From assembly GCA_021818475.1 (NCBI GenBank), contig JAKADZ010000003.1, forward strand, positions 27,988-91,987: DNA of 64,000 nucleotides, given 5' to 3'. The stretch comes from Nanobdellota archaeon. GTDB lineage: Archaea > Nanobdellota > Nanobdellia > Pacearchaeales > GW2011-AR1. Below the pieces are notes generated by a model, which did no database searches, was not told the origin of the DNA, and saw only the letters and a list, made by a program, of their open reading frames with translations. Both the position numbers and the translations under genes were made by a program. Of this stretch, positions 6,078 through 50,696 are shown in pieces (position 1 is the first letter of the stretch; every line of letters starts with the position of its first letter).

Positions 6078-6205
6078 GCCTCCGTCGCATAATGGTATTG
6101 CACCGGTCTTGAGTGAGGATAAAACCTCCTAATTGTTCGTCGAGGTTTCGTCAAACAAGAGAACCGGGCCTTTATGGCTTCCAGGTTCGATTCCTGGCGG
6201 GGGCG
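6078..6205 (+). tRNA. tRNA-Ser (anticodon UGA) with a ~48-nt intron at the canonical 37/38 position and a long variable arm
   Basis: Manual fold: acceptor GCCTCCG/CGGGGGC (one G-U pair); D-arm GCAT-AATGGTAT; anticodon stem CCGGT/ACCGG with loop CTTGAGT (U33, anticodon TGA 6110-6112, R37); intron ~6114-6161 interrupting the 3' anticodon stem; variable arm GCCTTTATGGCTT (13 nt); T-arm CCAGG-TTCGATT-CCTGG; discriminator G; CCA not encoded. Confidence 0.7.
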
Positions 6206-33723: not shown

Positions 33724-36399
33724 TTAAGCGCTAGTTGTTGTGCTTGTACTTGTTGTTACAAGTGTAGCTGTTGTTGCAGAAGTACCTTGGTATTTCTTTC
33801 CAACAGTTGTATCCACAGTTTGTGTTCTTAAGTAAGTAGCAGCGTTTACAGTGTCTGCAGCTTCATAACCTGCAACAAGCAATGCAACCTTACCAGTTGT
33901 GTAAGGGCTTGCGAAGCTTTGGATCAAGAATTGTCCTGAACCAATGCCAGTAGCAGTTGTGAAATCAGCACCGCATGCAGCTGAACCTAACAAATTAGCA
34001 GCAACTGAATTTACGCAGCTTCCGCCAACTACGATTAAGTTCTTAGCACTTACTCCGCTAACTTCAGCATCTGTTACAAGAACATCTCCAAGTTGAGTTG
34101 CTCCTGTTGTTGATACCTGGCCAGCTGTTACTGTAGCAGAAACTGCTCCAGCATAAACCTGTGCATAAACTTGTTCACTTGGATAGCTTATTGAAGCTAT
34201 ATACTGATCAGAATCACTTGTATCTATTGTTGCAATACTACCATATAGGTCTGCTTTAGTTGTAAGCTTATTATTGCTATGCAATGTTAAGGCTGAACTA
34301 TTTGCGTAAGTGTCTGCAACTCCAGTAGTAGAAGAACTAACTCCTACTTTAGCTCCTGCACGTTCAGTTGTGATAACCATACCATTATAGTTATTGTTAT
34401 CATCTTTAGCTTCAATGACTTGTACTGCAGGTCCTGTTATCTGTGCTCCTCCTGGTTGGATTGGGGTTATTTGAAGTGCTTCAGAAGTTCCAGTACCAGA
34501 TACATTATAATTAAATTCTCCTGCGTGTAATATAGTAGAAGAACTTGTATCTGCTGTATTAATCAAAACACTATTTACTGTCCAATAACCAGTTGCAGTA
34601 GCATTACTTTCTGCAGAAGCAACAGTATACGTTTGATACTGTCCGTTTCCAAGAGGGAACATCAATCCAGTTACATTACTGGTTGCAATTCCATTCCAAC
34701 TTAGTAAGCTAGGGATTGTAGTAGGTTCCCAAAATGCAACTTTAGCTCCATCTTGAGTCTGTATCGTTGGATACAATATTACATTTCCACTAGCACTATC
34801 TGGATAACCAATACTAACATTCTTTCCAGAAGTTAGTACACTTCCGGCAACTCCTGGTTGTATAGTCAAGCTGTAAGACTTGCCTCCAACAGTTACTGTT
34901 CCAGTTGATGTACCTGCAACGAATGTAGAATCTATTGTGCTTCCTGTAGATTCATCAACAAATTTTACATCTGTATTAGTTGAGGTATTCAAAATACTTT
35001 GAACTTTCAAAAGATATCCTGAATTTTCATTTCCTACAACAACATAGTCTCCTTCATGAAGGAGTTTACCTTCACGAACGCTTATGTTATGTCCGTCATC
35101 GTCATGTACAAGACTGAACCATCCACCTGTTGATGAATTCTTTGCGAATACAGTAGAAATTGGATTTCCATTGTAATCGTTGAAAGCTAATTGTAGCTTG
35201 TCATCACCAGCAGAAGTTACTGCAATATTCTCTCTTGATGAAGAGTTTGCAGGAACATTTAATCCGGCAAAGTTAACTTGCACTGTTCCGAATGCAGGGT
35301 CAACATAAGAACTTCCTGGAAGTATAGCATCATGGTCTGAATCTACTGCATAGTCAGATATTGTAAGTGAAGTTAAGTTTTGTGGAGTTCCTGTCCCAAA
35401 ACTAACCATTGTCCCTTGTACAACATCATTATTGTCCCCAGTTTCGATTGATTGACCATTTATTAAAGTTAACTTATCAGAACCGGCAACAACTGATGCA
35501 GATACTACATTACCTGCCTGGCTTGAGCTTGTTACTGCAATAGTTATGCCCTGTATCTTCTTTGAAGATGCTTCGTTAACTGTTTCAGTTTCGCTTGCTC
35601 CAGTAGAGTCTGTAACTTTTATTGTTGAAGAAGTGCTTGTACCAGAAATTAATTCTACTGTATAAGTCATTCCTCCGATTGTTACAGTTGTTTGTGCATT
35701 AGGACTGCTTGCAGTTGCGCTTGATACATCCTTTGTCAAATCTATTTTCTGTGCGCTCTTTAAAAGAACTAAATCATTTGCATCTGTAGAAGAACTAACA
35801 GTAAAGTCAGTTCCAAATAAATGCAATGTTTGTCCTTCTGAGTTTGCATCAGTGAAATTTACAGCTTTATTGAATGTAGCTGTAAGATTCATCAAAGGAG
35901 CTGAACTTGTTGTGTTCAATAATATCCCATATTGAGGATCATCTGAACTTGTAGGTTGTTGTGCGAAGATTAATCTTGGAGCTTGACCAACAGTTATTGT
36001 TTGTTGTATATTGGCATCAACGTTTCCAGAGAATTCTTCATCTGCCAAAACTGTAGGTAAATCGGTCTTTGTTATAACTGTTTTAACAGTGTTTAACGGA
36101 TCATTTAAGTACAATTTTGTTCCGCCTGTGAACAATGGAGTTGCTTCTCCTGAAACACTTCCAGTTGTTGAAGTAGTGCCTCCAGCCATGTAAGACTGCA
36201 AGTTACTTTGAATGTTTCCAGCCTGAACTACATCAAGTGAAGAAACACCGGCGCCAGTACCATAAACTATTGCTACATCTGCAGCTCCAGATACCACGAA
36301 TGGACTTGGATAATTTGCCGCAGCAGCAACGCCCATAGTCATGCCTACCATCAATGCGCTAGCCGCAATTGCTGATACTTTTTTGAAATTTAATCTCAT
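33724..36399 (-). CDS. giant Thr/Ser/Gly-rich secreted surface (S-layer-like) protein
   Basis: Signal peptide MRLNFKKVSAIAASALMVGMTMGVAAAANYPSP; ~890 aa of low-complexity beta-rich sequence; strong SD AGGAGGT 8 nt before the ATG at 36399 (the ORF-track start at 36495 is upstream of this). Confidence 0.6.
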   Translation of the reverse strand: MRLNFKKVSAIAASALMVGMTMGVAAAANYPSPFVVSGAADVAIVYGTGAGVSSLDVVQAGNIQSNLQSYMAGGTTSTTGSVSGEATPLFTGGTKLYLNDPLNTVKTVITKTDLPTVLADEEFSGNVDANIQQTITVGQAPRLIFAQQPTSSDDPQYGILLNTTSSAPLMNLTATFNKAVNFTDANSEGQTLHLFGTDFTVSSSTDANDLVLLKSAQKIDLTKDVSSATASSPNAQTTVTIGGMTYTVELISGTSTSSTIKVTDSTGASETETVNEASSKKIQGITIAVTSSSQAGNVVSASVVAGSDKLTLINGQSIETGDNNDVVQGTMVSFGTGTPQNLTSLTISDYAVDSDHDAILPGSSYVDPAFGTVQVNFAGLNVPANSSSRENIAVTSAGDDKLQLAFNDYNGNPISTVFAKNSSTGGWFSLVHDDDGHNISVREGKLLHEGDYVVVGNENSGYLLKVQSILNTSTNTDVKFVDESTGSTIDSTFVAGTSTGTVTVGGKSYSLTIQPGVAGSVLTSGKNVSIGYPDSASGNVILYPTIQTQDGAKVAFWEPTTIPSLLSWNGIATSNVTGLMFPLGNGQYQTYTVASAESNATATGYWTVNSVLINTADTSSSTILHAGEFNYNVSGTGTSEALQITPIQPGGAQITGPAVQVIEAKDDNNNYNGMVITTERAGAKVGVSSSTTGVADTYANSSALTLHSNNKLTTKADLYGSIATIDTSDSDQYIASISYPSEQVYAQVYAGAVSATVTAGQVSTTGATQLGDVLVTDAEVSGVSAKNLIVVGGSCVNSVAANLLGSAACGADFTTATGIGSGQFLIQSFASPYTTGKVALLVAGYEAADTVNAATYLRTQTVDTTVGKKYQGTSATTATLVTTSTSTTTSA

Positions 36400-36777: not shown

Positions 36778-37128
36778 ATGTCACAGACAACACGGGAAAT
36801 CACCCTTAAGGAATCAAAAGGAACATTTTCAATATTCAGGAAATCGTCGTCAAATAAAGAAAATTATGATTTTTCAGGGATTTCCGCATTAAGACAGCTT
36901 CTAAGCAACGAAAAGGCAAGAATACTTGATGTAATAAAAAATGAAAATCCTTCTTCATTATACCTTCTGTCTAAAAGGCTTGGGAGAGATTTCAAATCTG
37001 TCCACGAAGATGTAAAATTGCTAGAAAGATTTGGATTTTTGGAGCTTGTAGAGGAAAAAACAAAGAACAGAATAAGGCATAAACCAAGGCTTATTTCAGA
37101 TTCTATAACTATTCACATAAAACTTTAA
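36778..37128 (+). CDS. small winged-helix transcriptional regulator (HTH), divergent from the S-layer-like gene and adjacent to the pilin cluster
   Basis: LDVIKNENPSSLYLLSKRLGRDFKSVHEDVKLLERFGFLEL resembles an ArsR/PadR-like wHTH. Confidence 0.45.
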   Translation: MSQTTREITLKESKGTFSIFRKSSSNKENYDFSGISALRQLLSNEKARILDVIKNENPSSLYLLSKRLGRDFKSVHEDVKLLERFGFLELVEEKTKNRIRHKPRLISDSITIHIKL

Positions 37129-37712
37129 CTGTAAACAGTCAGAGAAACCTCATAATCCTGCCCGCTTCTTGCAAAATCCTGGAATCCTCCCTGATATTCT
37201 GCAGTTTTATTCCCCTTATCAATAGTAAGCTTGTCCTGTCCGTCAGCACTCACTTTCAGCTCATATCCCTTTATCGCGCTTTGATTCCCCGCATTCCACG
37301 AGTTTTCAACTATTCCCGCAAACGTCGAATTAAGAACATCACAGCTTGCCCTTCCGTCAATACAGCTTTCTCCGCTATTGCATGATATAATCAAATCCTG
37401 CAGGTTAAGAAATTGGATTTCATTCTCGCAGTCAGTGGTGTATTGGAGTGAAGCCTGAATAAAACTGTCAATCTGGTAACTTTCAGTTGTTCCTTTGGTT
37501 GGGCTTTTTATTAAAAAACTAAGCAAAATCAGCAATCCTACTGACACAATGATCGCAATAAGCGCAAATCCAACCATTTCCTCTTGCCCCGAGCGATTTC
37601 GCGGAGTTAAGGTCAGTGATTTGGAAGCGAGGTCGGGAGTTGTTTTGTTGCGGTACAAATGAAAAAAATTTCCTGTTTTTTGCTTCTGCCCTTTATTATT
37701 TAATCTTATCAT
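37125..37712 (-). CDS. archaeal type IV pilin-like protein (class III signal peptide, long leader)
   Basis: ...KSLTLTPRNRSGQEEMVGFALIAIIVSVGLLILLSF: basic residues then G-Q followed by a hydrophobic helix. The leader-coding region contains family-1 element D. Confidence 0.55.
   Translation of the reverse strand: MIRLNNKGQKQKTGNFFHLYRNKTTPDLASKSLTLTPRNRSGQEEMVGFALIAIIVSVGLLILLSFLIKSPTKGTTESYQIDSFIQASLQYTTDCENEIQFLNLQDLIISCNSGESCIDGRASCDVLNSTFAGIVENSWNAGNQSAIKGYELKVSADGQDKLTIDKGNKTAEYQGGFQDFARSGQDYEVSLTVYS
37588..37639 (+). repeat. GC-rich repeat family 1, copy D, embedded antisense in the leader-coding region of pilin gene 37125-37712
   Basis: CCCCGAGCGATTTCGCGGAGTTAAGGTCAGTGATTTGGAAGCGAGGTCGGGAG is ~85% identical to 44405-44460 although the rest of the two genes is diverged. 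Confidence 0.6.
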
Positions 37713-38308
37713 GTTGTGGTTTTATCCTCTGATGCTACGAGAAGCATCGCAAGTTCGCATTTATCATAAACAATTTTCCCGTCAGTTTCTTTTCTGCACA
37801 GGGAAATATAATTTGAACTGTAAGGAAGTATTTTCACATTTTGGTCCAAAATTTTTATATCTCCGCAGTCAGGATAATTATTTGCGTCGCATATTTTATT
37901 ATTTCCTGCAGGATAAATTACCCTTATCTCTATTTTTGCAACTCCCCAGAAATTTGAGTAATCTGAATTATTTTTTAAGGCCATCACTTTGTCAAAATCG
38001 ACACAGTCTGTCGCGCTGCTTCCAAAAGAATTTCCGCATGAAAATTCAGGGGAATTTGCAAGTTTTGATACGAGGAGCATAGAACTTTCTTCTGCAATAT
38101 TAACTGCGCTTTTCTTGACATTCGAGAGAAGTATTGAAAGGAAAAAAAGCCCGACGAGAACAAAGAGAATTGTGACTGCTATAATCATAAATATTGTCTG
38201 CTGAATTTTAATCTGCCCGGATTTGTTTTTAGCAGGCGTGACCACACTTTTAAATGGAAAATCCCACGAAGAAAATCTGTGAGGTGTCGTCGCTACCATA
38301 ACATGCAC
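37709..38308 (-). CDS. archaeal type IV pilin-like protein
   Basis: ...PAKNKSGQIKIQQTIFMIIAVTILFVLVGLFF; likely start is the ATG at 38299 (MVATTPHR); overlaps neighbours by 4 and 16 nt. Confidence 0.5.
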   Translation of the reverse strand: MHVMVATTPHRFSSWDFPFKSVVTPAKNKSGQIKIQQTIFMIIAVTILFVLVGLFFLSILLSNVKKSAVNIAEESSMLLVSKLANSPEFSCGNSFGSSATDCVDFDKVMALKNNSDYSNFWGVAKIEIRVIYPAGNNKICDANNYPDCGDIKILDQNVKILPYSSNYISLCRKETDGKIVYDKCELAMLLVASEDKTTT

Positions 38309-39273
38309 ACCCTCGCATTATTTGTCTGATCGATAGATTCTGCTTCTGCCTGAATAACAGATAAATCTGAGGATTGATTGAGGTTCCCCGCATCTTTCCC
38401 GAGGGTGTTCAGTTCTTCCCCTAAATTGCTGTCACATCCTTTTCCCTCGGTGATAAGCTCTTTATTTGCATAAAGTGAAGACAACTCCCTCAGTCTAAGC
38501 ATCAGCCTTTTAACCTGGCATTCATAGACAGTGCTGTTTGAAAAAATAGCGGCATACATCAATGCTTTTGAATCGCTGACTCCTGAGAAATACATGACCG
38601 TCCCGTTTTTCTCAACCGAATCAGAACTAAAGTCGACATTTATATTGCATCTCTGCTGACCGAAACAAACTTTCACGTCGCTGTCTGAACAGTCGTTAAT
38701 TTTTAAATTGCTCTGGTTTAACTGTGAAATTTCTGTGCTTATATCATTCGGAGCGCCAACAAAGCAATAATTCACGTCGGCAGAAGTGATGTACATTAAA
38801 TCTGCAATTTTAAACGGAAAATTAAACGGCTCAGAAAAAATATAAAATTTCTGCCCTTCTACCTGGCTTTCAGAAAAAATATATTTATTTTCAAATCCGA
38901 CTCGGGTATCTGTTGCGACCCATTTTCCAAAATTTTTCTGGTCTAACTGTATAACTTGCTGCCCAAAATCTCCGGTCGGAATGCATATATTATCTATCCT
39001 GGTATCTGTCGGTATTGTTATCGACGTAGTTTGTGCAGATTCAAAGCTGGTCTCCATCGGGTCGAGCAAAACCCCTATCTGCTGTCCTGTTTCAGCGCTT
39101 ACTGCTGTCTGTTGTGTTCCTATAAGTTTTGAACTGAGATAAATAGCAAGAAAGATTATTACTATCCCTGCGATAATTGCAAAAAGCCATCCAAAAGATA
39201 TTTCCAAAGCCCCTCTGCTGTTTTTTCCTGAAAAATTAGCGAGAGAAAAATTTTTATTCTGGCTTCTTTTCAT
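38293..39273 (-). CDS. archaeal type IV pilin-like protein (326 aa)
   Basis: ...FSGKNSRGALEISFGWLFAIIAGIVIIFLAIYL, class III signal-peptide pattern. Confidence 0.5.
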   Translation of the reverse strand: MKRSQNKNFSLANFSGKNSRGALEISFGWLFAIIAGIVIIFLAIYLSSKLIGTQQTAVSAETGQQIGVLLDPMETSFESAQTTSITIPTDTRIDNICIPTGDFGQQVIQLDQKNFGKWVATDTRVGFENKYIFSESQVEGQKFYIFSEPFNFPFKIADLMYITSADVNYCFVGAPNDISTEISQLNQSNLKINDCSDSDVKVCFGQQRCNINVDFSSDSVEKNGTVMYFSGVSDSKALMYAAIFSNSTVYECQVKRLMLRLRELSSLYANKELITEGKGCDSNLGEELNTLGKDAGNLNQSSDLSVIQAEAESIDQTNNARVCMLW

Positions 39274-39279
39274 TTTATA

Positions 39280-39723
39280 TCACCTCGTTACTGTAACCAG
39301 CGTCTCTCCGAAATTTTTTTCAATTGTCATGCTTAATTTTCCGTTTGCAGTCTGGATGCAATAAGGATTTTCATCTTGGGTTATTTTTGCCTGATCTATA
39401 TTTTCAATTGTTTTCTCAGGAACTATCTGGCTCGAGGTAAATTTCAGATTGCCGACAGGATCTCCGTTGATAAAACAGACTGCACTTATATAAGAAGGCA
39501 GAGGATAAACCACTGTCTGGCTTCCCTGAACACTTTTCCACATCTTATTTATATCATCCTGAAAATTATTGAGAAATGTATCTATCTGAACTGACTGCTG
39601 CAAATCTATAAATTTTTTTATTGCATAAAATGCGAATGCGAGAAAAACAATTATCATAATTATTGTAAAAATCATTCCGAACGACAAATTCATCTGCCCC
39701 TTAATGTTCCCTCTTTTATCCAT
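39280..39723 (-). CDS. archaeal type IV pilin-like protein (~147 aa)
   Basis: MDKRGNIKGQMNLSFGMIFTIIMIIVFLAFAF; the ORF-track start at 39771 is probably too far upstream. Confidence 0.5.
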   Translation of the reverse strand: MDKRGNIKGQMNLSFGMIFTIIMIIVFLAFAFYAIKKFIDLQQSVQIDTFLNNFQDDINKMWKSVQGSQTVVYPLPSYISAVCFINGDPVGNLKFTSSQIVPEKTIENIDQAKITQDENPYCIQTANGKLSMTIEKNFGETLVTVTR

Positions 39724-39873
39724 ATCTAAAAATATCCAATATAACTTATAAATTTTTACATAACCAATCATCAGTCATGAGCACTATCTCAGGGGAAAAT
39801 GATTGTAGCGAAAAATAAATTTTTCACTAATTCGTATAAATCCAAATTAAAGAAACCGCGTAGGTTTCGTTCA

Positions 39874-42051
39874 TCAGTAACTGCTGAAGGGTCTTACAGT
39901 TATACTGCATTCATCAGGATTTGGCTGATTTCCAAATTCATCCTGGCATTTTACATAGTAATTGCTGTTTGTATTCCAGTCAGTAAAGTGGTTTATGAAA
40001 TCTGTTGTTGTCATGTTAATGCCGTCGGCAAAATTATAACTGCAGCTGTTTGTTCCATAAACGCAGTTAGACTGTTCATCGGTTACAATGTTTAGTTGAT
40101 TATTCTCATTGTAAACTCTCACAACAGTTGGTGGCTGGAAGTCGCTTTCTACAGAGAATTGTGTTGACTGTGTAGCGCAGTTTCCATTTAATTCAGCGAG
40201 GTCACAGCATTTTATTGTATAATCATAATTTCCTGCATCCAGCCATAAATCCTGAGAATGCTGGTATGAGTTTGTGTTTGCGAATAATACATAAGCGCTG
40301 TCAGGCTGAGAGGTCTGCTTGAAATCGCAATATGCCTGTCCTTTATTGTATCCTGCAGAAGTGTGAGCAGTCAATGTGACTTTCACACTTTGTGTTGAAT
40401 CTTTGATTGTGCTTCCGACGTCAGGCGTTACAGAGTCAATAACTAAAGGCTGTGTCCCGTATAAAATATATTTGTAATCTGTTGCCATAGTATACCTGTC
40501 TGATTCATTATTAAGAGGATAACTCTTACAGTTGAAATAAAAATCGTTTTCAGTGCTGTCTTTCAGTCCGTCGACTGTCCCGGAACATTTGTAATAAGTA
40601 TTTGCATTCATTTCAGTTATACTCTGGGCACAGGTCATTGTATTGGGCATATTGTCATAAGATTCATCATTATGGCTCCATTTGCAGTCTGCAGGTTTGT
40701 CTGTGTAAATATTTACATCCTGCGAAGTCTTTCCGCTTTCAACAAACCATCCATTTAAAGGTTCTGTTAATTCAATTGAAGGAGCAGTGGTATCAGGACT
40801 CTTCTGCACGCAATATTTGAATACAAATGTTCCGACATTTGAATAACCATTTTCACTCTGGCATCTTACATAGACATTGAAATTTCCTCCGTTGCTTAAA
40901 TTGATTCCCTCATTAGATAATTCCGTTAATCCGCCGTGGACAGACATTAAAGTATGATTATACAAATATTCTCCGCTGCTGATTGCCTGTGCCATCTCGT
41001 CAAATGTGTCTGTTCTGTTTGTGTCTATTTTGCACATTCCTGGTTTATCAAGGGAAATTCCATAAGTTAATCTTGTGAATGCAGGAATGCATCCATCTGA
41101 TGTTTTTTTATCTTTTATTACAACTCCTGTATCTCCGGGAAGCGTCGCAGTATAAGGGTCATATTCAAATTGTGTTTTATCCAATGGTCCATCCCATGCA
41201 GTTATTGCAGGAGGATAAACATCATTTCTGTTGTTCCAGACGCACATTTCATCACTTGTTCCTGAATTCAGCAATTTGCAACTCTGGCCTAAACTTTCAC
41301 ATTTGTATTCAGTACAGGGCAATGCTCCTTTATTGCATTGTTCACAGTCAGCTCCTCCTGTTACTGGATGCCAAGGCAGACAACTGAATTGCACTGCATC
41401 AAATCTTACATCTCTGTAAGTAAATAATGCAATTAGGACACCAATTCCTGCCCCAATTAATCCTAACCCTGAAATAACTAATCCTCCAAAAGGAAGTGCA
41501 AGCCCCCAAAGAGGAGTTCCTGTTGCAGCAGAATATAATAATCCTACTGCTGCCCCAACCCCGAATCCAATTCCCACTGCATGTGAGACAGAATCTGATA
41601 ACTGCGGACTTACTCCCATCCATTGTAAAACATAAGTTGTTCCGTAATATAATGCTACTGCAATTCCTCCGTTAGTTAATATGTTCATTCCATTAGCCCA
41701 AAGATTGGCTCCAAACTGACTCCATCCGACAAAACTTGTTCCTCCTGCTCCTCCGGCCCCACCTGCTCCGCCAGCTCCTGCTGCAGGATACATTGAAGGA
41801 TTTTCTGCTCCCATAAATGCATAAGGATTTTTTACTCCTGACAATGCTGCAGTTGGCGTGGGTGCAGACGAAAGTGCTGCTTTTGCCTCGGCCATCATAT
41901 CAGGAAGATTGGAACTAACTGTAGTTATATCTGCAGCGTTGACAAATCCAAATTCATTTCCTACAAAATAAGAAAATGCAGAAATACTTCCAATTAATAT
42001 CATAATTTCAAATATTGCAATTGCCCCTTTTTCAAAATTTTTCTTTTTCAT
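39874..42051 (-). CDS. large pilin-like/polytopic membrane protein with class III signal peptide, Gly-rich segment, 3-4 extra TM helices and a big Cys-rich extracellular domain
   Basis: MKKKNFEKGAIAIFEIMILIGSI (start at 42051 avoids an 80-nt overlap); GAGGAGGAGGAGG; hydrophobic block GIGFGVGAAVGLLY...GLVISGLGLIGAGIGVLIALF; ~40 Cys in the C-terminal 450 aa. Confidence 0.5.
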   Translation of the reverse strand: MKKKNFEKGAIAIFEIMILIGSISAFSYFVGNEFGFVNAADITTVSSNLPDMMAEAKAALSSAPTPTAALSGVKNPYAFMGAENPSMYPAAGAGGAGGAGGAGGTSFVGWSQFGANLWANGMNILTNGGIAVALYYGTTYVLQWMGVSPQLSDSVSHAVGIGFGVGAAVGLLYSAATGTPLWGLALPFGGLVISGLGLIGAGIGVLIALFTYRDVRFDAVQFSCLPWHPVTGGADCEQCNKGALPCTEYKCESLGQSCKLLNSGTSDEMCVWNNRNDVYPPAITAWDGPLDKTQFEYDPYTATLPGDTGVVIKDKKTSDGCIPAFTRLTYGISLDKPGMCKIDTNRTDTFDEMAQAISSGEYLYNHTLMSVHGGLTELSNEGINLSNGGNFNVYVRCQSENGYSNVGTFVFKYCVQKSPDTTAPSIELTEPLNGWFVESGKTSQDVNIYTDKPADCKWSHNDESYDNMPNTMTCAQSITEMNANTYYKCSGTVDGLKDSTENDFYFNCKSYPLNNESDRYTMATDYKYILYGTQPLVIDSVTPDVGSTIKDSTQSVKVTLTAHTSAGYNKGQAYCDFKQTSQPDSAYVLFANTNSYQHSQDLWLDAGNYDYTIKCCDLAELNGNCATQSTQFSVESDFQPPTVVRVYNENNQLNIVTDEQSNCVYGTNSCSYNFADGINMTTTDFINHFTDWNTNSNYYVKCQDEFGNQPNPDECSITVRPFSSY

Positions 42052-42055
42052 TTTT

Positions 42056-43639
42056 TTATCCGCTGCTCCCGGTTTGTATTGATATCTGACTTTGAGTATA
42101 TCCATCTTTTCCGAGATAATTCTTCTGATTTCCACAGTCTCCTAACTGAGTGCAGATATTATTCATCTGAGTCTGCCAATTTGGACTTAAACATGAACAG
42201 TTATTTTTTCCGCTCCATCCCAAAAAAGTACTGTCTGGAGAACAAGTCCAGCTTCCGCCGATTGATTTTTCCATTCTTACTATGCAGGTTGAACTTGCTC
42301 CTGCACAGCTCGAAGTTGTGTCGCTGCTTGGGGTTTGACTAAATCCCGGCGCATAATTTGGAACACAAATTCCAGAAGAACCGGTATTTTGAAGTCCGCT
42401 CGATGTAAAATTATATCCTGAAGAACTTACCCATTTGCAATCTCTTACATTACTGTCTTCACAATCTGATTGTGTTGACTGGCCCCAGCAATCCTGCCAA
42501 ATATTCACTTTGCAGTTTGCAGTATAAAATTTGCTTCCTGATGAAGTTATTGTATCATTTTCTACACAAACTTTTTGTCTTGGTGAATCACATTCTTCAT
42601 TTGTGACTTCTCCATTATAACACATTAATCTGAAATCAGTTGCTCCTGGGGAATAGCTGTTTCCTGTTTTTGAATCTGTTGAACACCATGTCTCTCCTTG
42701 TTTTGGATAGTTAGTTGAAGTGGCATATCCTGTTGGGGAACCGCTGTATGGCCCGCGATAATTCACACAGTCTAGATTTCTGCATAAGTTATTCCCGTAA
42801 TTTACAGAATCTCCTGACTGCTTCGCCTGGCACATACTTCCTGAATAATAATCACAAACTCCGCAGCTTGGGGAATTCTTATTCCCTTTGCCGTCGTCGC
42901 ATGTGGGAGATTGTATTTTTGTCCAGTAATTTTCATCATTTATCTTTGAAGAATCATAAACATTTGCCAGGTTTCCGCAGCTGTCTTCAAAATAAACATT
43001 TCCGTCGTCACCGCAAATAGTGTTTTGTGTTTTTCCGCAGACAGTTCCCAATTCCTGCGCACTGCACAAATATCCTTCGTGGAATGAAACATTTCCGAGG
43101 GCAGAATTTTGCGCCATTGTCTGGCAGTCTTTTTTTGTATCCATTTCACAGGTTGTTACATAATCTTTTGTGTAAACACACGCCCCCTTTGCCTGGGGAT
43201 TTGCGCTTGCAAGACAGGTTAATTCATCGTTGACATTTGGCTGGTAAGTAGAATCAATTCCATAAAGCACAGACATTCTGTTGCATGCAACTTGCGTAAC
43301 AAATGCCGCCTGGTCTCCCATTAAACAGCACCCTAATTTACATTGGGGAAGACTGCTTTGTGGCTGAGGGCTCCAAAACCCGTTATTGCTTTCACATGCT
43401 CTTTCTGTTGAAGGCATACATGTTCCTTCCTGCTGGTCGATGCAGGTTCCTTCTGCACAAAAAGATGTTGATGCGCAGGGAGTAGACAAACTTTTGTAAT
43501 TGCTGTCGCATTGAGATTGATCATTTACATTCTGGCAAAATGCTCCTGAAGTTGTTTTTTCACAGCAATAACTTGCTGCACTCACAATTCCAATTAGTAA
43601 AATTCCAAAGAACAATAATAAAAATATTTTTCCCCTCAT
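42056..43639 (-). CDS. secreted Cys-rich protein (527 aa), candidate pilus-associated adhesin
   Basis: Sec signal MRGKIFLLLFFGILLIGIVSAAS; more than 60 Cys; no TM. Confidence 0.5.
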   Translation of the reverse strand: MRGKIFLLLFFGILLIGIVSAASYCCEKTTSGAFCQNVNDQSQCDSNYKSLSTPCASTSFCAEGTCIDQQEGTCMPSTERACESNNGFWSPQPQSSLPQCKLGCCLMGDQAAFVTQVACNRMSVLYGIDSTYQPNVNDELTCLASANPQAKGACVYTKDYVTTCEMDTKKDCQTMAQNSALGNVSFHEGYLCSAQELGTVCGKTQNTICGDDGNVYFEDSCGNLANVYDSSKINDENYWTKIQSPTCDDGKGNKNSPSCGVCDYYSGSMCQAKQSGDSVNYGNNLCRNLDCVNYRGPYSGSPTGYATSTNYPKQGETWCSTDSKTGNSYSPGATDFRLMCYNGEVTNEECDSPRQKVCVENDTITSSGSKFYTANCKVNIWQDCWGQSTQSDCEDSNVRDCKWVSSSGYNFTSSGLQNTGSSGICVPNYAPGFSQTPSSDTTSSCAGASSTCIVRMEKSIGGSWTCSPDSTFLGWSGKNNCSCLSPNWQTQMNNICTQLGDCGNQKNYLGKDGYTQSQISIQTGSSG

Positions 43640-43640
43640 T

Positions 43641-44492
43641 TTATGTTGTTGGCGTTAAGTATCCTGCAGGCCATATTTGCCCTCTTATTGCAAACTGAAA
43701 TTTATCTCCTGTGTCTCTGTCAGTCAGTACGTAAATTTTTCCGTCATTTCCCCTCAAAATTTTTTCTGCTTTCAGATTATGATAGTAAGTCATGTATGTT
43801 GCTACATCAACATCACCATAACTTGCTTCCCATTCGATTATACTATTAGCTATTGAAACTAATTCATAAAGATTATTATTCACCAAAACAACAAATGAAT
43901 TATACTTCTGCGCATTTTCTCCTTTTGTCAAAGTTAAGGAATAATTAAAAGTTGCGACAATCCTGTTTGGAAATAATTCAACTGTTTTCATTCCAGGTTT
44001 TAAATCGACGCTGAATCCTTGTTTGACATAACTCTGCTGCATTGATGTAAAACAGGCATCGACGTTATTGCTTATCTGATTTTTAATCTCTGATTCAATA
44101 TGTGATTTTAACATTGGCTGCTGCACTTCGCACGGACGGTAATATTCATTTGTGTAACATAGGTATTCAACTTTTGAATCGTTGTAAAGAAGATAATTTG
44201 TTGCATTTATGCTTCCTCCCTGCAGTGAAAGAGTGTCGACGGCATTTTTAATATCCTGTTCAATGCAGGATTGAATAAATTGTTGCGGACTTTGCTGTGC
44301 TGTTCCCAAACTTGTTTTAATCTGCGGATAAAAACTATAAATAAGAAGTCCTACAGCGACGATGATTATTCCGATGATAATAAAAATAGTTACCTGCCCC
44401 GAGCGATTTCGCGGAAGTAAGGTCAGTGACTTGCAAGCGGGGTCGCAAGCAGTTTTATTACTTAGAAAATTATTTCCCTCTTTTTTATCCAT
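43641..44492 (-). CDS. archaeal type IV pilin-like protein (283 aa), paralog of 37125-37712 at the leader
   Basis: ...ACKSLTLLPRNRSGQVTIFIIIGIIIVAVGLLIYSF; the leader-coding region contains family-1 element E (44405-44460). Confidence 0.55.
   Translation of the reverse strand: MDKKEGNNFLSNKTACDPACKSLTLLPRNRSGQVTIFIIIGIIIVAVGLLIYSFYPQIKTSLGTAQQSPQQFIQSCIEQDIKNAVDTLSLQGGSINATNYLLYNDSKVEYLCYTNEYYRPCEVQQPMLKSHIESEIKNQISNNVDACFTSMQQSYVKQGFSVDLKPGMKTVELFPNRIVATFNYSLTLTKGENAQKYNSFVVLVNNNLYELVSIANSIIEWEASYGDVDVATYMTYYHNLKAEKILRGNDGKIYVLTDRDTGDKFQFAIRGQIWPAGYLTPTT
44405..44460 (+). repeat. GC-rich repeat family 1, copy E, in the leader-coding region of pilin gene 43641-44492
   Basis: CCCCGAGCGATTTCGCGGAAGTAAGGTCAGTGACTTGCAAGCGGGGTCGCAAGCAG. 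Confidence 0.6.
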
Positions 44493-45359: not shown

Positions 45360-46679
45360 ATGGAAAACATTCAAAAAGAGAATTCTTCCGACCCTTCAAA
45401 AATTAAAGAAGAAAGAATAAGAAAAATAACACATTTATATTATTCCAAGCCTGAAATTCAGAAAGCAATTTTTGAATTTTCCGGAAACAGGGAAATCTCT
45501 CCCAGATATTTTGAAGGATTTGGAAAACGGCCTGATACATTTGAATATGTCGGAGATATTTTCGGACTTGTAAAAAAAGGAGCCACTTCTTTTCATTGTT
45601 CTGAAGAACTTTGGGAAAATCCCCTGAATATAATGACAAATGCAGACCGAAAAGAGCTGGATAAAATGAGAATTGGATGGGATTTGCTTTTGGATATTGA
45701 CAGCAAATACATTGATTACAGCAAGATTATGGCGAAGATAATAATTAATTTTCTTGAATTTAGCGGAGTAAAAAATGTCGGGATAAAATTTTCAGGGAGC
45801 AAAGGATTTCATATAATTGTTCCATGGAAAGCATTTCCGAAGGAAATTAACGGAGTCAAAACTTCTGATATGTTCCCGGAATGGCCGAGAATTCTTACTA
45901 AATATATCATGGAAAAAACTCATGATTATCTGATAACAGAAATTACAAAACTTCATTTTCCTGATTCAAAATATGTAAAAGACAGGGAAGCCCCGAAAGA
46001 AGTTATGCCCGATTTGATTCTTGTTTCACCGCGTCATCTTTTCAGAATGCCTTATTCCCTTCACGAAAAAACTTCACTTGCAAGTGTTGTAATTGACAAA
46101 AATAAAATTATGGAATTTCAGCCAAAAGATGCCGACCCGTTCAAAGTCGAGGTAAAAAATTTTTCTCCGAACTGTAGGGAAGGCGAAGCAACCCAACTAT
46201 TAATGCAGGCTCTTGATTGGAATAAAGAAAATTCTTTTGAAGAGGAAAAGAAAACTTTTGAATTCAGGCCTGTTCAGATTACTGACCGTTCAGAAAAAAA
46301 TTTTCCCCCTTGCGTAAAACAGATACTTCTCGGAATTAAAGACGGAAAAAAGCGTGCCTTGTTTTTTCTGATAAATTTTTTCCGCTCAATCGGAGTTGAT
46401 AAGGAGGAACTGGAAAAAATAATTTATTCATGGAACGAAAAAAATCAGCCGCCTCTTCAGGCAGGTTACATTAAATCACAGATTTCCTGGGCCTTAAGGA
46501 AAAAACCAATCATGCCCCCAAATTGCAGAGAGTTCTATCAGGGAATAGGAGTTTGCGCTTTTGATGACGCTCTTTGCAGGAAAATAAAAAATCCGATTAA
46601 TTATGTAATCAGAAAAAATTTTGCTTCTGCAAAAAGAAAATCATCGAAAAATAAAGATAATTTTAAAAATAAGGATTGA
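45360..46679 (+). CDS. priS: DNA primase: PriS catalytic domain fused to a PriL-CTD-like Fe-S domain
   Basis: PriS motifs LLLDIDS (DxD) and FSGSKGFHIIVPW; the C-terminal ~150 aa carry FPPCVKQILLG (the PPCM-like PriL-CTD motif) plus further Cys (CREF, CAFDDALC). Confidence 0.7.
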   Translation: MENIQKENSSDPSKIKEERIRKITHLYYSKPEIQKAIFEFSGNREISPRYFEGFGKRPDTFEYVGDIFGLVKKGATSFHCSEELWENPLNIMTNADRKELDKMRIGWDLLLDIDSKYIDYSKIMAKIIINFLEFSGVKNVGIKFSGSKGFHIIVPWKAFPKEINGVKTSDMFPEWPRILTKYIMEKTHDYLITEITKLHFPDSKYVKDREAPKEVMPDLILVSPRHLFRMPYSLHEKTSLASVVIDKNKIMEFQPKDADPFKVEVKNFSPNCREGEATQLLMQALDWNKENSFEEEKKTFEFRPVQITDRSEKNFPPCVKQILLGIKDGKKRALFFLINFFRSIGVDKEELEKIIYSWNEKNQPPLQAGYIKSQISWALRKKPIMPPNCREFYQGIGVCAFDDALCRKIKNPINYVIRKNFASAKRKSSKNKDNFKNKD

Positions 46680-48454
46680 TTAAAATAACTATGAAAAAAA
46701 AGGTGTTTGTAATTTTCTTTTTCCTATTAATACTATCTGCATTCTTTATCTCTGCAGAAACAAATCAAAGTGTTGATGACAAAGGTTATTCATGTCTGTT
46801 AAGCAAGGTCACTAATAATTGTGCATCTCTCTCAACAGAAGAAAAAATATTTTCATTATTGGCAGTCGGACAGTGCAAAACAGAATTGCTTTCAGATTCA
46901 TCAGGAAATCAGTGCTGGCCTCAGTCGGGATGTACAATAAAGACAACCGCTCAGGCAATTATGGCATTAAGCCAGACCGGTTCTGACACTTCGCAGGCAG
47001 AAAGCTGGCTATCTTCACGGAATATGACTTATCCTAATATTGACTGGTTATTGCAAATCGATACAACAAATTCAACTTCGTGTACTGCAAATTATTTAGG
47101 GGGAACTTATTCTTTTTCAACTAATGAAGATAAAACATTAAGCGGGAGTGCAGGAAGCTGTTTGAGTTTATACCAAAATTATTGGCTGAAAATTTCTCCA
47201 AACTGTTATAATCAGGATATTCAGATATCATGTTCTGATTCTTTTATGACTTCCTTACTGTACAAGAAAAAAACTTCCGATACCGTTTATGTTTCAGATA
47301 AAACTGTTTCTGCAGCAGGTGAAGGAACAACAACTGAAAGAGTAAACTCTCTGTGTTTTTCTTCTGACGGCAGTTCATGCGATTATGAAGGGACTTTGTG
47401 GGCTGCATTAGTTTTGAAATCACGTGGGAAAGATGTTTCTGCATACATCCCCTATCTGATTGCTTTGGCAGATGATAACTCAAAGTATGTTCCATACTCT
47501 TTTATTTATTCTTTAACAGGAAATTTCAGAACAGACTTGCTTGCACAGCAGCAGCAAAATCAGTGGTGGTCTGCATCGGGTGATAAAATATATGACACTG
47601 CAGTTGCTCTTCTCCCTTTCCAGAATGAAAATTCTCTTCTTGAAAAAACAAACTCTCAAAACTGGCTGACTCAGATTCAGGGAACTGACGGATGCTGGCA
47701 GGATAATATAAGAAATACTGCATTCATCCTTTATTCATTATGGCCTAGACAGGTTTCTACACAGATTTCTCCTGATTGTCAGAACTCAGGAAATTATTGT
47801 ACTTCAAGTGCATTATGTTCTTCTGTGTCAGGCAATGTATTAAGTAATTATAGTGGATGTTTCGGGACAAATGTCTGCTGTGATAAACAGCCGCCTACCC
47901 CAAGTTGCGCAGATCAAAATGGGCAGATATGTTCTTCTGGGCAGACATGCATTGGGGGAACAACGGTAAGTTCATCTGATACAACTTCCTTGACTTCATG
48001 CTGTATAAACGGAAATTGCGGGACTCCGACAACTTCCGATTGTGAATTAAATAATGGTGTTTGTAAAAGTTCCTGTGCAACAAATGAGCAGTTTGCTTCT
48101 TATTCCTGTTCTTCGGGAGTATGCTGTATCGCTAAACCTGCTGCAACTACATCAAATGTTTTGTTGATAATTCTTCTTGTTGTGCTGATTGTTTTGGTTG
48201 CATTGGGGATAATCTTCCGAAATAAACTAAGAATACTTTGGCTTAAATTTAAATCAAAAGGGAAAGGCAAACCTTCAGCGGTAGCAGGAGGTCCAAGATT
48301 CCCTCCAACCTCTTCGGCAAAAGTTTATCCTGGAGCAATTCCGCGAAAGATAATCACTCCTCAGCAGCCACAGAGAATGCCTGTGAGACCCATGGCCAAG
48401 AATAAACCTGAATATGACGAAGTACTCAAGAAATTAAAAGAAATGGGCAAATAA
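46676..48454 (+). CDS. type I membrane surface protein: alpha/alpha-toroid-like repeats, Cys-rich modules, TM, basic Pro-rich tail
   Basis: Signal peptide; repeated QAIMAL / WAALVL / DTAVALL / NTAFILYSL helices; CADQNGQICSSGQTC...CELNNGVCKSSC; TM LLIILLVVLIVLVALGIIF. Confidence 0.45.
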   Translation: MIKITMKKKVFVIFFFLLILSAFFISAETNQSVDDKGYSCLLSKVTNNCASLSTEEKIFSLLAVGQCKTELLSDSSGNQCWPQSGCTIKTTAQAIMALSQTGSDTSQAESWLSSRNMTYPNIDWLLQIDTTNSTSCTANYLGGTYSFSTNEDKTLSGSAGSCLSLYQNYWLKISPNCYNQDIQISCSDSFMTSLLYKKKTSDTVYVSDKTVSAAGEGTTTERVNSLCFSSDGSSCDYEGTLWAALVLKSRGKDVSAYIPYLIALADDNSKYVPYSFIYSLTGNFRTDLLAQQQQNQWWSASGDKIYDTAVALLPFQNENSLLEKTNSQNWLTQIQGTDGCWQDNIRNTAFILYSLWPRQVSTQISPDCQNSGNYCTSSALCSSVSGNVLSNYSGCFGTNVCCDKQPPTPSCADQNGQICSSGQTCIGGTTVSSSDTTSLTSCCINGNCGTPTTSDCELNNGVCKSSCATNEQFASYSCSSGVCCIAKPAATTSNVLLIILLVVLIVLVALGIIFRNKLRILWLKFKSKGKGKPSAVAGGPRFPPTSSAKVYPGAIPRKIITPQQPQRMPVRPMAKNKPEYDEVLKKLKEMGK

Positions 48455-48652: not shown

Positions 48653-49915
48653 TTGTTTATGAAAAAGAATGTGATAATATTTTTTTGGATAATCTTAATT
48701 TTATTTCCGTTTATTTCTGCAGTTGAGTTTAATATAAACCAAAATTTCAGTCAGGGTGAAACAATAATTGCAAAACTTTCGGGAAACTTTTTGACTCCGG
48801 TTACAAATGATAATCTTTTATTTTACAAAGGACATGTCCAGATACCGATGGTTTATGACGTGGTAAAAGCAGGAACTGATTATTATTTTTATGCTTTGAC
48901 AACAGGTAAGTCTCCGGATAATTATTCAGTTTCGGTTCAAAATGTTCAATATACAAAAGGAACAGGTGTCAGCTCGGATAATCTAGCAGCAAATTTTTCA
49001 ATATTAAATACTACTGCAGCTTTTTCTGTCAATCCCGGAGTTATTTCAACTTCAGGAGATTTCAGCCTTGAAATTCAGAATCTGCTGGACAATCAAATTA
49101 ATGTAAATGTAAACACACAGACAAATAATTCTGTCAGGGAAATTTTTATTTCCGGTTCTCAAAGCTCGTCACTCTCTCTAAATTCAGGGGAGACTAAACA
49201 GATAGATTTCACTTTGGGGGACGGAGATTCAGGGCTTACTATGATTGGATTAAGTTCAGGAAATTTCAGTTATCAGATTCCTGTTTATATACTCTCTTCC
49301 TCTAAGACTGCTTCAGCACAGTCATTTGGAATGGATCCTCCCCAGTTATATCTTTCAGTTCCGACAAATACAACATTAACAAGGACTGTTCTGTTTTATA
49401 ACACGGGGGATGTTGACCTTCAGAATATTTCTCTTTCCCTTTCTGACTCATTAACTTCTTCAATGAATCTCTCGACTTATACAATAAATAATTTAAGTTC
49501 AAAATCAGGGACTCAGTTTGATTTATCCTTTTTTTCTTCCTCTGCAGGAACAGTTGAAGGGTATCTGAAGGCAAAATCGGGGGATTTATCAAATTCTTTT
49601 TTTGTCTCTCTTAATTTTATTAATAATTATACCACAAATCAAAGTGAATCTATTCTGACAAAAACCTGCGCAGAATTTAATGGGACTGTTTGTTCTTCCG
49701 ATGAGCAATGTGACCGAACTCCTGTTTACGCAAAAGATAGTGTATGCTGTCTGGGGTCCTGCATTCAGTCACAGGGAGGTTCATCAGGACAGACTGTAGG
49801 AATAATCCTTTTGGGGGTGGTAATTTTGGCAATTATTTTTTTCTACATAAGATATAAAAAAGCAAAGAGAAAACCCGTTAATCTGTTGGAAGTAGCAAAG
49901 GGGAAAAAGTTCTAA
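48653..49915 (+). CDS. type I membrane surface protein: Ig-like domains, Cys-rich module, TM anchor
   Basis: Signal peptide; CAEFNGTVCSSDEQCDRTP...CCLGSC module; TM VGIILLGVVILAIIFFYI; basic tail. Confidence 0.45.
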   Translation: MFMKKNVIIFFWIILILFPFISAVEFNINQNFSQGETIIAKLSGNFLTPVTNDNLLFYKGHVQIPMVYDVVKAGTDYYFYALTTGKSPDNYSVSVQNVQYTKGTGVSSDNLAANFSILNTTAAFSVNPGVISTSGDFSLEIQNLLDNQINVNVNTQTNNSVREIFISGSQSSSLSLNSGETKQIDFTLGDGDSGLTMIGLSSGNFSYQIPVYILSSSKTASAQSFGMDPPQLYLSVPTNTTLTRTVLFYNTGDVDLQNISLSLSDSLTSSMNLSTYTINNLSSKSGTQFDLSFFSSSAGTVEGYLKAKSGDLSNSFFVSLNFINNYTTNQSESILTKTCAEFNGTVCSSDEQCDRTPVYAKDSVCCLGSCIQSQGGSSGQTVGIILLGVVILAIIFFYIRYKKAKRKPVNLLEVAKGKKF

Positions 49916-50199: not shown

Positions 50200-50696
50200 T
50201 TTCTTTTCTTTTTCTTTGGTTCAGCGTTTTCAGATTTTTTTTCTTCCCGCTCTTTCTTTTCCTGTTTCATCTCCATAGCTTCTTTCAGTCTTCTTTCAAG
50301 AATAGTTTTTTCATTCTGTAAAATTCTGGCAATCTCTTCATATCCGTGGAGCCTTCTTGTAAGCTCACTCAAGACATCGCTAAGTTCAGCATTTGTGAAG
50401 GATAAATTTTGTGGGGAAATTATCTCTATATAAGCGGGCATATATTTGAACATTAAAATTGTAAGGTAAAGAAGATTTTCTGTTTCAATTTCTACTTCTG
50501 CAAAACTGGTGTAAAAGTCTTTCTGGTCTTTCATTAAGACCGGTTCATTTATTTTAACACTTTTTATTGATACTCCCTTTTCTTCCCCTATATTTTTGAC
50601 CAATCCATTAAGAGTTTCAGTTAAAAATTCAGGGGGTCTGCCAAGTATTTCAAGAACAAACATCGAATTTATTTTTTTATTTTCAGTTGAACTCAT
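50196..50696 (-). CDS. hypothetical protein with K/E-rich C-terminus, co-oriented with and overlapping the ComEA-like gene
   Basis: 166-aa ORF. Confidence 0.4.
   Translation of the reverse strand: MSSTENKKINSMFVLEILGRPPEFLTETLNGLVKNIGEEKGVSIKSVKINEPVLMKDQKDFYTSFAEVEIETENLLYLTILMFKYMPAYIEIISPQNLSFTNAELSDVLSELTRRLHGYEEIARILQNEKTILERRLKEAMEMKQEKKEREEKKSENAEPKKKKRK

What the first reader, a model, noticed from the sequence alone, without database searches (positions are those of the whole stretch)
37125..44492. Seven-gene pilin-like cluster with giant Cys-rich partners but no assembly ATPase/platform in view
Six consecutive minus-strand genes carry class III (FlaK/PibD-type) signal-peptide-like N-termini (basic stretch, G-Q/A, hydrophobic helix). 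They are tightly overlapping, and a 527-aa Sec-secreted protein with more than 60 Cys lies between them. One pilin-like protein (39874-42051) is about 725 aa, with a poly-Gly tract, extra TM helices and a very Cys-rich ectodomain. No PilB/FlaI ATPase, PilC/FlaJ or prepilin peptidase occurs within 64 kb. The cluster is flanked by an HTH regulator, an S-layer-like giant protein, PCNA/primase and, 6 kb away, ComEA. In a DPANN-like genome this is a candidate host-attachment or DNA-uptake fibre with unusual minor pilin/adhesin composition.
Basis: partly seen in the sequence, partly recalled or inferred. Interest (0 to 1): 0.7.

Follow-up and report, generated by a model that had tools for sequence, protein, structure and literature searches.

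The report
Conserved prepilin-like surface operon in DPANN
A seven-gene operon kept in the same place in hundreds of tiny DPANN archaea encodes five proteins with pilin-type signal peptides, a disulfide-rich secreted protein and a membrane protein with an Ig-like stalk; it probably supplies the subunits of a still undescribed type-IV-filament-like surface structure whose motor is encoded elsewhere.

Summary
The gene cluster is real but the description needs correcting. Five genes (g1, g4, g5, g6, g7), not six, carry a class III (prepilin) signal. Across 44-76 orthologues each, the residue before the hydrophobic helix is always G/A/S in four families, and those four begin their hydrophobic segment with Gln. 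The 725-aa protein (g3) has a pilin-like first helix with a conserved Glu/Gln but no conserved cleavage residue. It then has 3-4 further membrane helices and a confidently modelled stalk of about four Ig-like domains. The 527-aa protein has 43 Cys, not more than 60. None of the seven matches Pfam, NCBIfam or solved structures; the g5 model has no PDB neighbour. The operon sits in fixed synteny (PriS, PCNA, g1-g7, HTH, S-layer gene) in Pacearchaeota/Woesearchaeota MAGs, and 276 species representatives encode a g3 relative. No secretion ATPase lies within 81 kb here or within 10 kb in 90 related loci. That is normal for archaeal pilin sets, and published Woesearchaeota genomes carry flaI/J/K. 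Best reading (about 0.55): the pilin, minor-pilin and anchor module of a type IV filament assembled in trans. Host attachment or DNA uptake is untested. In passing, a 51-nt repeat element was found translated inside many prepilin leaders.

The parts
43641..44492 (-). g1: 283-aa prepilin-like protein. Leader of 32 aa ends ...PRNRSG, then QVTIFIIIGIIIVAVGLL. First gene of module A.
   Evidence: position -1 is G/A/S in 76/76 orthologues and the mature start QVTIF is conserved. No Pfam, NCBIfam or PDB match.
44401..44451 (-). 51-nt GC-rich repeat unit, translated as part of the g1 leader (TACDPACKSLTLLPRNRS).
42056..43639 (-). g2: 527-aa Sec-secreted protein (signal ...GIVSA|AS) with 43 Cys. About 40 Cys columns are invariant or nearly so. 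No membrane anchor.
   Evidence: No Pfam or PDB sequence match in 30 orthologues.
39874..42051 (-). g3: 725-aa membrane protein (the gene caller gives 743 aa, starting at 42105). It has a pilin-like N-terminal helix with conserved E/Q but a variable -1 residue, a variable disordered linker and 3-4 Gly-rich TM helices. Its ectodomain is a Cys-rich cap followed by about four Ig-like domains.
   Evidence: 65 homologues at 29-74% identity; 276 species representatives encode a relative.
39852..39868 (-). Hairpin followed by a T-rich run just after the g3 stop codon. A TATA-like TTTATAAG lies about 25-30 nt before the ATG at 39726. This is the likely boundary between transcription units g1-g3 and g4-g7.
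   Evidence: Other genomes carry insertions or duplications exactly at this junction.
39280..39726 (-). g4: 148-aa prepilin-like protein (163 aa from the longest ORF, start 39771). N-terminus MDKRGNIKG|QMNLSFGMIFTIIMII. Short paralogue of g5.
   Evidence: hhalign g4 versus g5 gives probability 96.9% over 133 columns.
38293..39273 (-). g5: 326-aa prepilin-like protein, ...KNSRG|ALEISFGWLFAIIAG. Model: TM helix, beta-sheet domain, C-terminal helical bundle.
37709..38299 (-). g6: 196-aa prepilin-like protein, ...AKNKSG|QIKIQQTIFMIIAVTILF.
37125..37712 (-). g7: 195-aa prepilin-like protein. Leader of 42 aa ends ...PRNRSG, then QEEMVGFALIAIIV.
37591..37641 (-). Second copy of the 51-nt repeat unit, translated inside the g7 leader (TTPDLASKSLTLTPRNRS).
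36778..37128 (+). HTH protein of the HVO_A0114 family. It is convergent with g7 and divergent from the S-layer gene, and always sits next to the operon.
   Evidence: PF25212, E 7.7e-17. Synteny.
33724..36399 (-). 891-aa S-layer-like protein with a Sec signal. Constant neighbour of the operon.
   Evidence: Orthologues carry PF05124 S_layer_C. Synteny.

Best explanation
The cluster is a lineage-wide operon of Pacearchaeota/Woesearchaeota-type DPANN archaea, probably read as two transcription units (g1-g3 and g4-g7). It encodes the structural subunits of a type-IV-filament-like surface structure.

Proposed mechanism:
- Five proteins (g1, g4, g5, g6, g7) are made as prepilins with a short basic leader.
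- A FlaK/PibD/EppA-type peptidase, encoded elsewhere, cuts after [KR]-[G/A]. This exposes Gln in four of the five families, as in the Methanococcus Epd pilins.
- The mature hydrophobic N-terminal helices are then extracted from the membrane and bundled by a FlaI/FlaJ-type ATPase and platform, also encoded in trans.
- All five are single-copy, carry large globular domains and keep a fixed gene order. They therefore look like a defined minor-pilin or pseudopilus complex rather than one abundant major pilin.
- g3, a polytopic protein with a rigid Ig-like stalk, is the likely membrane or S-layer anchor or base. g2, a secreted protein knotted by disulfides, is the likely distal partner or adhesin.

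Shown: the motif and its conservation, the synteny, the domain architectures, and the lack of known homologues. Inferred: cleavage, assembly into a filament, the roles of g2 and g3, and any biological function (adhesion to a host, or DNA uptake).
For: Motif. A conserved [KR][KR][G/A/S] | Q/x plus hydrophobic helix is present in five families across 44-76 orthologues each. In four of them the hydrophobic segment starts with Gln in essentially every orthologue seen. Median leader length is 7-12 aa.

Relatedness. The five are weakly related through their N-termini, and g4 is a paralogue of g5 (hhalign 96.9%).

Leader tolerance. Leaders accept in-frame insertion of one to four copies of an unrelated 51-nt repeat directly before the G/A. 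This is expected if the leader is cut off and discarded.

Specificity. In the window only these five adjacent genes pass a class-III filter.

Operon structure and conservation. The genes are tightly packed. The synteny PriS-PCNA-g1..g7-HTH-S-layer is strictly conserved: 26 loci carry PCNA, all of g1-g7 and the HTH, and 276 species representatives have a g3 relative. Median identity is 40-52%, against 65% for PCNA.

g3 model. The ectodomain has pLDDT 85-93 and consists of tandem Ig-like domains.

Literature. Archaeal pilin loci are often separate from the ATPase/TadC genes and may include S-layer-like and large adhesin-like proteins (PMC4858521). TFF 'system 1' occurs in DPANN (bioRxiv 10.64898/2026.04.22.720090). 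Woesearchaeota are reported to encode flaI/J/K.
Against: No Pfam or NCBIfam pilin or class III model matches, even on isolated N-termini at E up to 10.

Profiles of g1, g4, g6 and g7 find no solved pilin.

The g5 model (pTM 0.75) has no pilin-like or any other significant structural neighbour. In it, the helix is joined to the globular part by low-confidence segments rather than packed as in classical pilins.

No ATPase, platform or peptidase lies on 81 kb of this contig or within 10 kb of the cluster in 90 related loci. Their presence in this genome could not be checked. One preprint states that type IV pilus parts are missing from groundwater DPANN (10.1101/2020.05.14.094862).

No small major-pilin candidate is in the window.

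g3 has extra TM helices, which are incompatible with extraction into a filament.
Confidence: 0.55

Rival explanations
1. A non-filamentous envelope complex. The pilin-like N-termini act as uncleaved signal anchors, as in the archaellum proteins FlaF/FlaG. The seven proteins would form a membrane-anchored scaffold that organises or tethers the S-layer, independent of any secretion ATPase.
For: The operon is invariably next to the S-layer gene and its divergent HTH. No ATPase lies nearby in 90 loci. g3 is polytopic with an Ig-like stalk. The g5 fold is unlike any solved pilin. Conservation is higher than is usual for pilins.
Against: A simple anchor does not explain an invariant small residue at -1 and basic residues at -2/-3 in four or five separate families, nor the Gln that starts the hydrophobic segment in four of them. 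It also does not explain why leaders tolerate 17-68 aa of junk insertion only upstream of that point. PCNA and primase are equally syntenic, so position alone is weak evidence.
Confidence: 0.2
2. A more specific version of the best explanation: a short competence-type pseudopilus, analogous to ComGC-GG of Gram-positive bacteria. It would span the S-layer and hand DNA to the membrane-anchored ComEA-like receptor.
For: Five different pilin-like subunits sit in one operon with no obvious major pilin. A secreted, C-terminally anchored HHH_3 protein lies 6 kb away and is conserved in 9 of 14 loci with enough flank. Ultra-small prokaryotes are reported to carry competence genes (PMC9938205).
Against: The ComEA-like gene is in a different transcription unit, separated from the operon by PriS, PCNA and two other genes. 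No ComEC, ComFA or DprA was seen in 81 kb. The large Cys-rich g2 and g3 have no counterpart in Com systems.
Confidence: 0.12
3. A bindosome-like set of substrate-binding proteins, as in Sulfolobus, where class III signals are used to assemble solute-binding proteins near the membrane.
For: Class III signals sit on proteins with sizeable, non-pilin-like globular domains.
Against: There are no ABC transporter genes in or next to the operon in any locus. There is no similarity to solute-binding protein folds and no Pfam SBP domain.
Confidence: 0.04

Closest known systems
Epd pili of Methanococcus maripaludis (archaeal TFF 'system 1'; EppA-processed pilins)
   Same: Both have several different pilin-like genes in one operon. 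Both have a class III signal with Gln at +1 (this property of EppA substrates is from my own knowledge). System 1 is reported in DPANN.
   Different: There is no sequence or Pfam similarity (PF04021 is not matched). No peptidase gene lies in the cluster. The subunits have large globular domains, and no short major pilin without a globular domain was seen. The Cys-rich g2 and polytopic g3 partners are unknown in Epd.
Bacterial minor-pilin/PilY1 priming complexes, T2SS pseudopilins GspH-K and ComGC-GG
   Same: Four or five distinct pilin-like subunits in fixed order, plus a large non-pilin partner. They probably work as a defined complex rather than a homopolymer.
   Different: The signal here is archaeal-type (no N-methyl-Phe or conserved E5 consensus in g1 and g4-g7). 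No fold similarity was detected. The assembly genes are not adjacent.
Euryarchaeal pilin sets encoded in trans to PilB/TadC (Haloferax PilA, arCOG02911 minor pilins; Makarova et al. 2016)
   Same: The pilin locus is separate from the ATPase/platform locus. It is associated with S-layer-like and large adhesin-like proteins with conserved cysteines.
   Different: No detectable homology to those families. g5 is not the all-beta Ig-like type described for arCOG02911.
Archaellum FlaF/FlaG
   Same: An N-terminal pilin-like helix without a conserved cleavage site, plus a beta-sandwich ectodomain that contacts the S-layer (own knowledge). This resembles g3.
   Different: g3 is far larger, has extra TM helices and a four-domain stalk, and there are no archaellum genes nearby.

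Membership tests
Archaeal class III signal peptide / type IV pilin-like proteins | Short basic leader ending in [KR]-[G/A], followed by about 20 hydrophobic residues (FlaFind-type rule) | tested here: met
   Met for g1, g4, g5, g6 and g7 and conserved in 44-76 orthologues each. Not met for g2, which has a Sec signal. Ambiguous for g3, whose -1 residue varies.
Archaeal class III signal peptide / type IV pilin-like proteins | Match to curated N-terminal pilin models (Pfam Class_IIIsignal PF04021, Pilin_N PF07790; NCBIfam equivalents) | tested here: not met
   No such hit for full proteins at E<=1, or for 50 isolated N-termini at E<=10.
Archaeal class III signal peptide / type IV pilin-like proteins | Pilin fold: long N-terminal helix packed on a beta-rich globular domain similar to solved pilins | tested here: not met
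Archaeal class III signal peptide / type IV pilin-like proteins | Cleavage by a FlaK/PibD/EppA peptidase | not testable with these tools
   Needs proteomics or a co-expression assay. Tolerance of leader insertions is indirect support only.
Type IV filament (TFF) system | Secretion ATPase (T2SSE/FlaI), platform (FlaJ/TadC) and A24 peptidase in the same genome | tested here: inconclusive
   Absent from 81 kb of the contig and from +-10 kb in 90 related loci. The rest of the genome could not be fetched. Literature reports flaI/J/K in Woesearchaeota, but another source says T4P parts are missing in DPANN.
Epd / TFF system 1 pilins | Gln at +1 of the cleavage site | tested here: met
   The hydrophobic segment starts with Q in essentially every g1, g6 and g7 orthologue displayed and in 44/53 g4. 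It is variable in g5.
Epd / TFF system 1 pilins | Dedicated EppA-type peptidase and a short major pilin without a globular domain in or near the locus | tested here: not met
   Neither is present in the window.
Competence pseudopilus (ComG-like) system | ComEA receptor together with a ComEC channel and a ComGA/GB-type ATPase and platform | tested here: inconclusive
   A ComEA-like HHH_3 protein is present at 50683-51207. ComEC, ATPase and platform were not seen in 81 kb. Genome-wide status is unknown.

The most novel reading that the evidence does not exclude
The operon may encode a hitherto unknown, lineage-defining envelope machine of Nanoarchaeota-type DPANN. It would be built from prepilin-like subunits with new folds, seated on a glycine-rich membrane base with an Ig-like stalk (g3) and capped by a disulfide-knotted protein (g2). 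This could be the molecular basis of the filament and portal that DPANN cells push through their S-layer towards a host. For the related Nanobdellota attachment organelle, the component proteins are explicitly unknown (PMC11420986).
Probability: 0.15. Interest if true: 0.85.

Novelty: new variant of a known kind. Interest (0 to 1): 0.55.

Why it matters
Pacearchaeota and Woesearchaeota are among the most abundant uncultured archaea, and how they touch or feed on other cells is unknown. One published analysis treats type IV pilus parts as missing in DPANN.

This operon is a concrete, near-universal and completely unannotated candidate for their surface apparatus. It comprises seven protein families with no Pfam model, at least one apparently new fold, fixed synteny beside the S-layer gene, and relatives in at least 276 species.

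It provides defined targets for structure prediction of the complex, for metaproteomic detection of processed N-termini, and for labelling in cryo-ET of enrichment cultures.

If the motor genes prove absent from these genomes, it would become an example of prepilin-like proteins used without a type IV machine.

Tried and rejected
- **Family libraries.** Pfam and NCBIfam on all seven proteins, Pfam on 30 g2 orthologues and Pfam on 50 isolated N-termini gave only transmembrane noise.
- **Solved structures by sequence.** Profile searches of g1, g2, g4, g6 and g7 against PDB sequences found nothing.
- **Looking for the motor genes.** I extended along the contig with two look-ups. This added about 17 kb and found no T2SSE, T2SSF or A24.
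- **Walker-A scans.** All ORFs in 90 related loci and 58 further loci showed only ABC and RFC-type ATPases.
- **The recurrent ORF of about 496 aa after g3.** In some loci this looked like a possible ATPase. It is most likely the aspartyl/lysyl-tRNA synthetase seen at window 54360-55856. I did not check this directly.
- **Profile search of g5 against 1.84 billion representatives.** It showed a large family (1532 clusters), but the listed hits are all close relatives, so there is no link to known families.
- **The repeat as a structured RNA.** RNAalifold gave a weak structure with no covariation. There was no Rfam match and no copy in viral contigs.
- **Promoter scan.** The bacterial sigma-70 scan is uninformative for an archaeon.
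- **Fusexin or class II fusogen reading of g3.** Rejected, because the best structural matches are plain Ig arrays.

Full report
**What is there.** The window is from a DPANN-type archaeon with about 35% GC. It carries archaeal ribosomal proteins, aIF5A, FtsZ/SepF, PCNA and PriS.

On the minus strand between 37125 and 44492 lie seven tightly packed genes:

| Gene | Coordinates | Length |
|---|---|---|
| g1 | 43641-44492 | 283 aa |
| g2 | 42056-43639 | 527 aa |
| g3 | 39874-42051 | 725 aa |
| g4 | 39280-39726/39771 | 148/163 aa |
| g5 | 38293-39273 | 326 aa |
| g6 | 37709-38299 | 196 aa |
| g7 | 37125-37712 | 195 aa |

The exact proteins occur on a 157.7-kb ENA metagenome contig, which the window samples at 77.3-141.3 kb.

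After the g3 stop codon there is a hairpin followed by a T-rich run. A TATA-like box sits about 25-30 nt before the ATG at 39726. A similar TTTATAAATA lies about 29 nt before the g1 ATG. The cluster therefore probably consists of two transcription units, g1-g3 and g4-g7. This fits with other genomes, which duplicate the g1-(g2)-g3 module or carry insertions exactly at the g3/g4 junction.

**The class III signal.** I collected orthologues from 90 related loci and aligned each family.

- Five families share the same N-terminal grammar: a short basic leader (median 7-12 aa), then K/R at -3 and -2, then G/A/S at -1, then about 20 hydrophobic residues.
- Position -1 is G/A/S in 76/76 g1, 53/53 g4, 44/44 g6 and 45/45 g7 sequences.
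- The hydrophobic segment starts with Gln in essentially every g1, g6 and g7 orthologue displayed and in 44/53 g4.
- g5 has KKG followed by A/Y/F-L-E-I-S-F-G-W-L-F.
- In the whole window a crude class-III filter picks out only these five genes as genuine hits.
- Profile-profile comparison shows that g4 and g5 are paralogues (96.9%). The others are related mainly through the N-terminus.

A plain Sec signal or signal anchor gives no reason for this conservation.

A second, independent argument comes from the leaders. In several genomes and several families, one to four copies of an unrelated 51-nt repeat have been inserted in frame, always directly upstream of the G/A. That tolerance is what one expects of a peptide that is cut off.

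g3 is not a clean sixth prepilin. Its first helix has a conserved Glu/Gln at +5 or +6 and resembles a pilin helix, but the residue before it varies (T, A, G, S, K, E...). The helix ends in a VSA-type site.

The AlphaFold model of g3 has mean pLDDT 75, and 85-93 in the ectodomain. It shows, in order:
- an N-terminal helix;
- a disordered, non-conserved linker that contains the poly-Gly tract;
- three to four glycine-rich TM helices;
- an ectodomain made of a Cys-rich cap and about four Ig-like sandwiches.

Foldseek returns only generic Ig/FN3 arrays. g2 has a normal Sec signal and 43 Cys, not more than 60. About 40 of its Cys columns are invariant or nearly so.

**No known relatives.** None of the seven proteins matches Pfam or NCBIfam. 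Isolated N-termini do not hit the class III or pilin models. Family profiles find nothing among PDB sequences.

**Distribution and context.** g3 has 65 homologues at 29-74% identity, and relatives in 276 GTDB species representatives. All but two of the 80 listed records are titled Pacearchaeota, Woesearchaeota, Nanoarchaeota/Nanoarchaeia or unclassified archaeon; the other two carry Methanosarcinales and Patescibacteria titles. g5 has 914 homologues and 1532 clusters at 50% identity.

The order PriS, PCNA, g1-g7, HTH (HVO_A0114 family), S-layer gene, then two small membrane/unknown genes is kept across the set. Median identity of the operon proteins to the window is 40-52%. That compares with 65% for PCNA and 46% for the S-layer protein.

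**The missing motor.** No T2SSE/FlaI, FlaJ/TadC or A24 peptidase occurs in the window or in 81 kb of the contig. No T2SSE-like Walker-A protein lies within 10 kb of the operon in any of the 90 loci.

This is not in itself unusual. Archaeal pilin sets are frequently encoded in trans (PMC4858521), and Woesearchaeota are reported to carry flaI/J/K. I could not check this genome as a whole, and one preprint states that type IV pilus parts are missing from DPANN. This is the main open point.

**Interpretation.** The best-supported model (about 0.55) is that the operon supplies a defined set of prepilin-like subunits for a type-IV-filament-like structure. g3 would be the membrane or S-layer anchor and g2 the distal partner. 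The peptidase, ATPase and platform would be supplied from elsewhere in the genome.

All five subunits are single-copy, large and fixed in order. A minor-pilin or pseudopilus-type complex is therefore more likely than a homopolymeric pilus.

Rival readings:
- An uncleaved, S-layer-associated scaffold (about 0.2).
- A competence-type pseudopilus working with the nearby ComEA-like protein. This is a functional sub-case (about 0.12). The ComEA-like gene is conserved in 9 of 14 loci, but PCNA and primase are equally syntenic.
- A bindosome-like set of binding proteins (about 0.04).

The most novel reading is that this is the unknown protein set of a DPANN host-contact organelle (PMC11420986). I put that at about 0.15.

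**Side finding.** A sharply bounded 51-nt GC-rich unit (ACTC[G/C]CGAC..CGCT.G.....CAC.G.CCTTA...CCGCGAAATCGCTC) occurs twice in the window, inside the g1 and g7 leaders.

A metagenome scan found about 48 related copies.
- 26 of them are translated directly before the cleavage site of at least 12 different class III families, and the next residue is always G/A.
- Some occur in tandem arrays of two to four copies.
- Others are non-coding. Six lie 19-99 nt beyond the 3' end of a convergent tRNA gene.

Differences between copies fall on codon positions 1 and 2. This points to a nucleic-acid repeat (MITE- or REP-like) that survives in prepilin leaders, not to a protein-selected motif. No RNA structure, Rfam family or viral copy was found.

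Noticed in passing
window 37591-37641 and 44401-44451 (minus strand); also L016, L096-L148: A 51-nt GC-rich repeat unit is translated in frame as part of prepilin leaders (...T[R/P]D.A..[S/T]L.L.PRNRS then G/A | mature N-terminus). It occurs in at least 12 different class III families and is sometimes tandem, x2 to x4. Other copies are non-coding; six lie 19-99 nt past the 3' end of a convergent tRNA gene. Variation between copies falls on codon positions 1 and 2, which suggests a DNA-level mobile or REP-like repeat tolerated in cleaved leaders. No RNA structure, Rfam hit or viral copy was found.
   Followed up: yes
related loci, e.g. L009, L021, L023, L026, L053, L069, L073: Many genomes carry a duplicated front module, g1 - g3' - g1' - g2 - g3. 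The extra g3-like protein can reach about 1260 aa (P0063-P0065, 29-32% identity). This suggests that g1 and g3 work as a pair.
   Followed up: partly
window 46676-48454 and 48653-49915 (+): Two further Sec-secreted proteins without Pfam matches. One is 592 aa with 30 Cys and a C-terminal TM anchor; the other is 420 aa. Both are conserved in the same synteny block, between the ComEA-like gene and PriS.
   Followed up: no
window 50683-51207 (-): A ComEA-like protein with a signal peptide, an HHH_3 domain and a C-terminal TM anchor. It is followed by an MJ0538-family gene. It is conserved in 9 of 14 related loci that have enough upstream flank.
   Followed up: partly
window 6078-6205 (+): A 128-nt Rfam tRNA match that ARAGORN did not call. 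It is probably an intron-containing archaeal tRNA.
   Followed up: no
same contig beyond the window: L094 6354-7664 and 1931-3400: A 436-aa DUF87/HerA-type ATPase and a RuBisCO large-subunit homologue lie beyond the window end: the ATPase about 1-2.5 kb past it, the RuBisCO about 5.5-7 kb past it. The ATPase is not a T2SSE-type protein, but it is the only secretion- or translocation-like ATPase seen on the 81 kb examined.
   Followed up: no
window 22792-24801 (+) and 28751-30397 (+): Other large surface-type proteins lie in the window. One is 669 aa with PD40 beta-propeller repeats and a papain-like amidase hit. The other is 548 aa with an NPCBM_assoc/CARDB-like domain.
   Followed up: no
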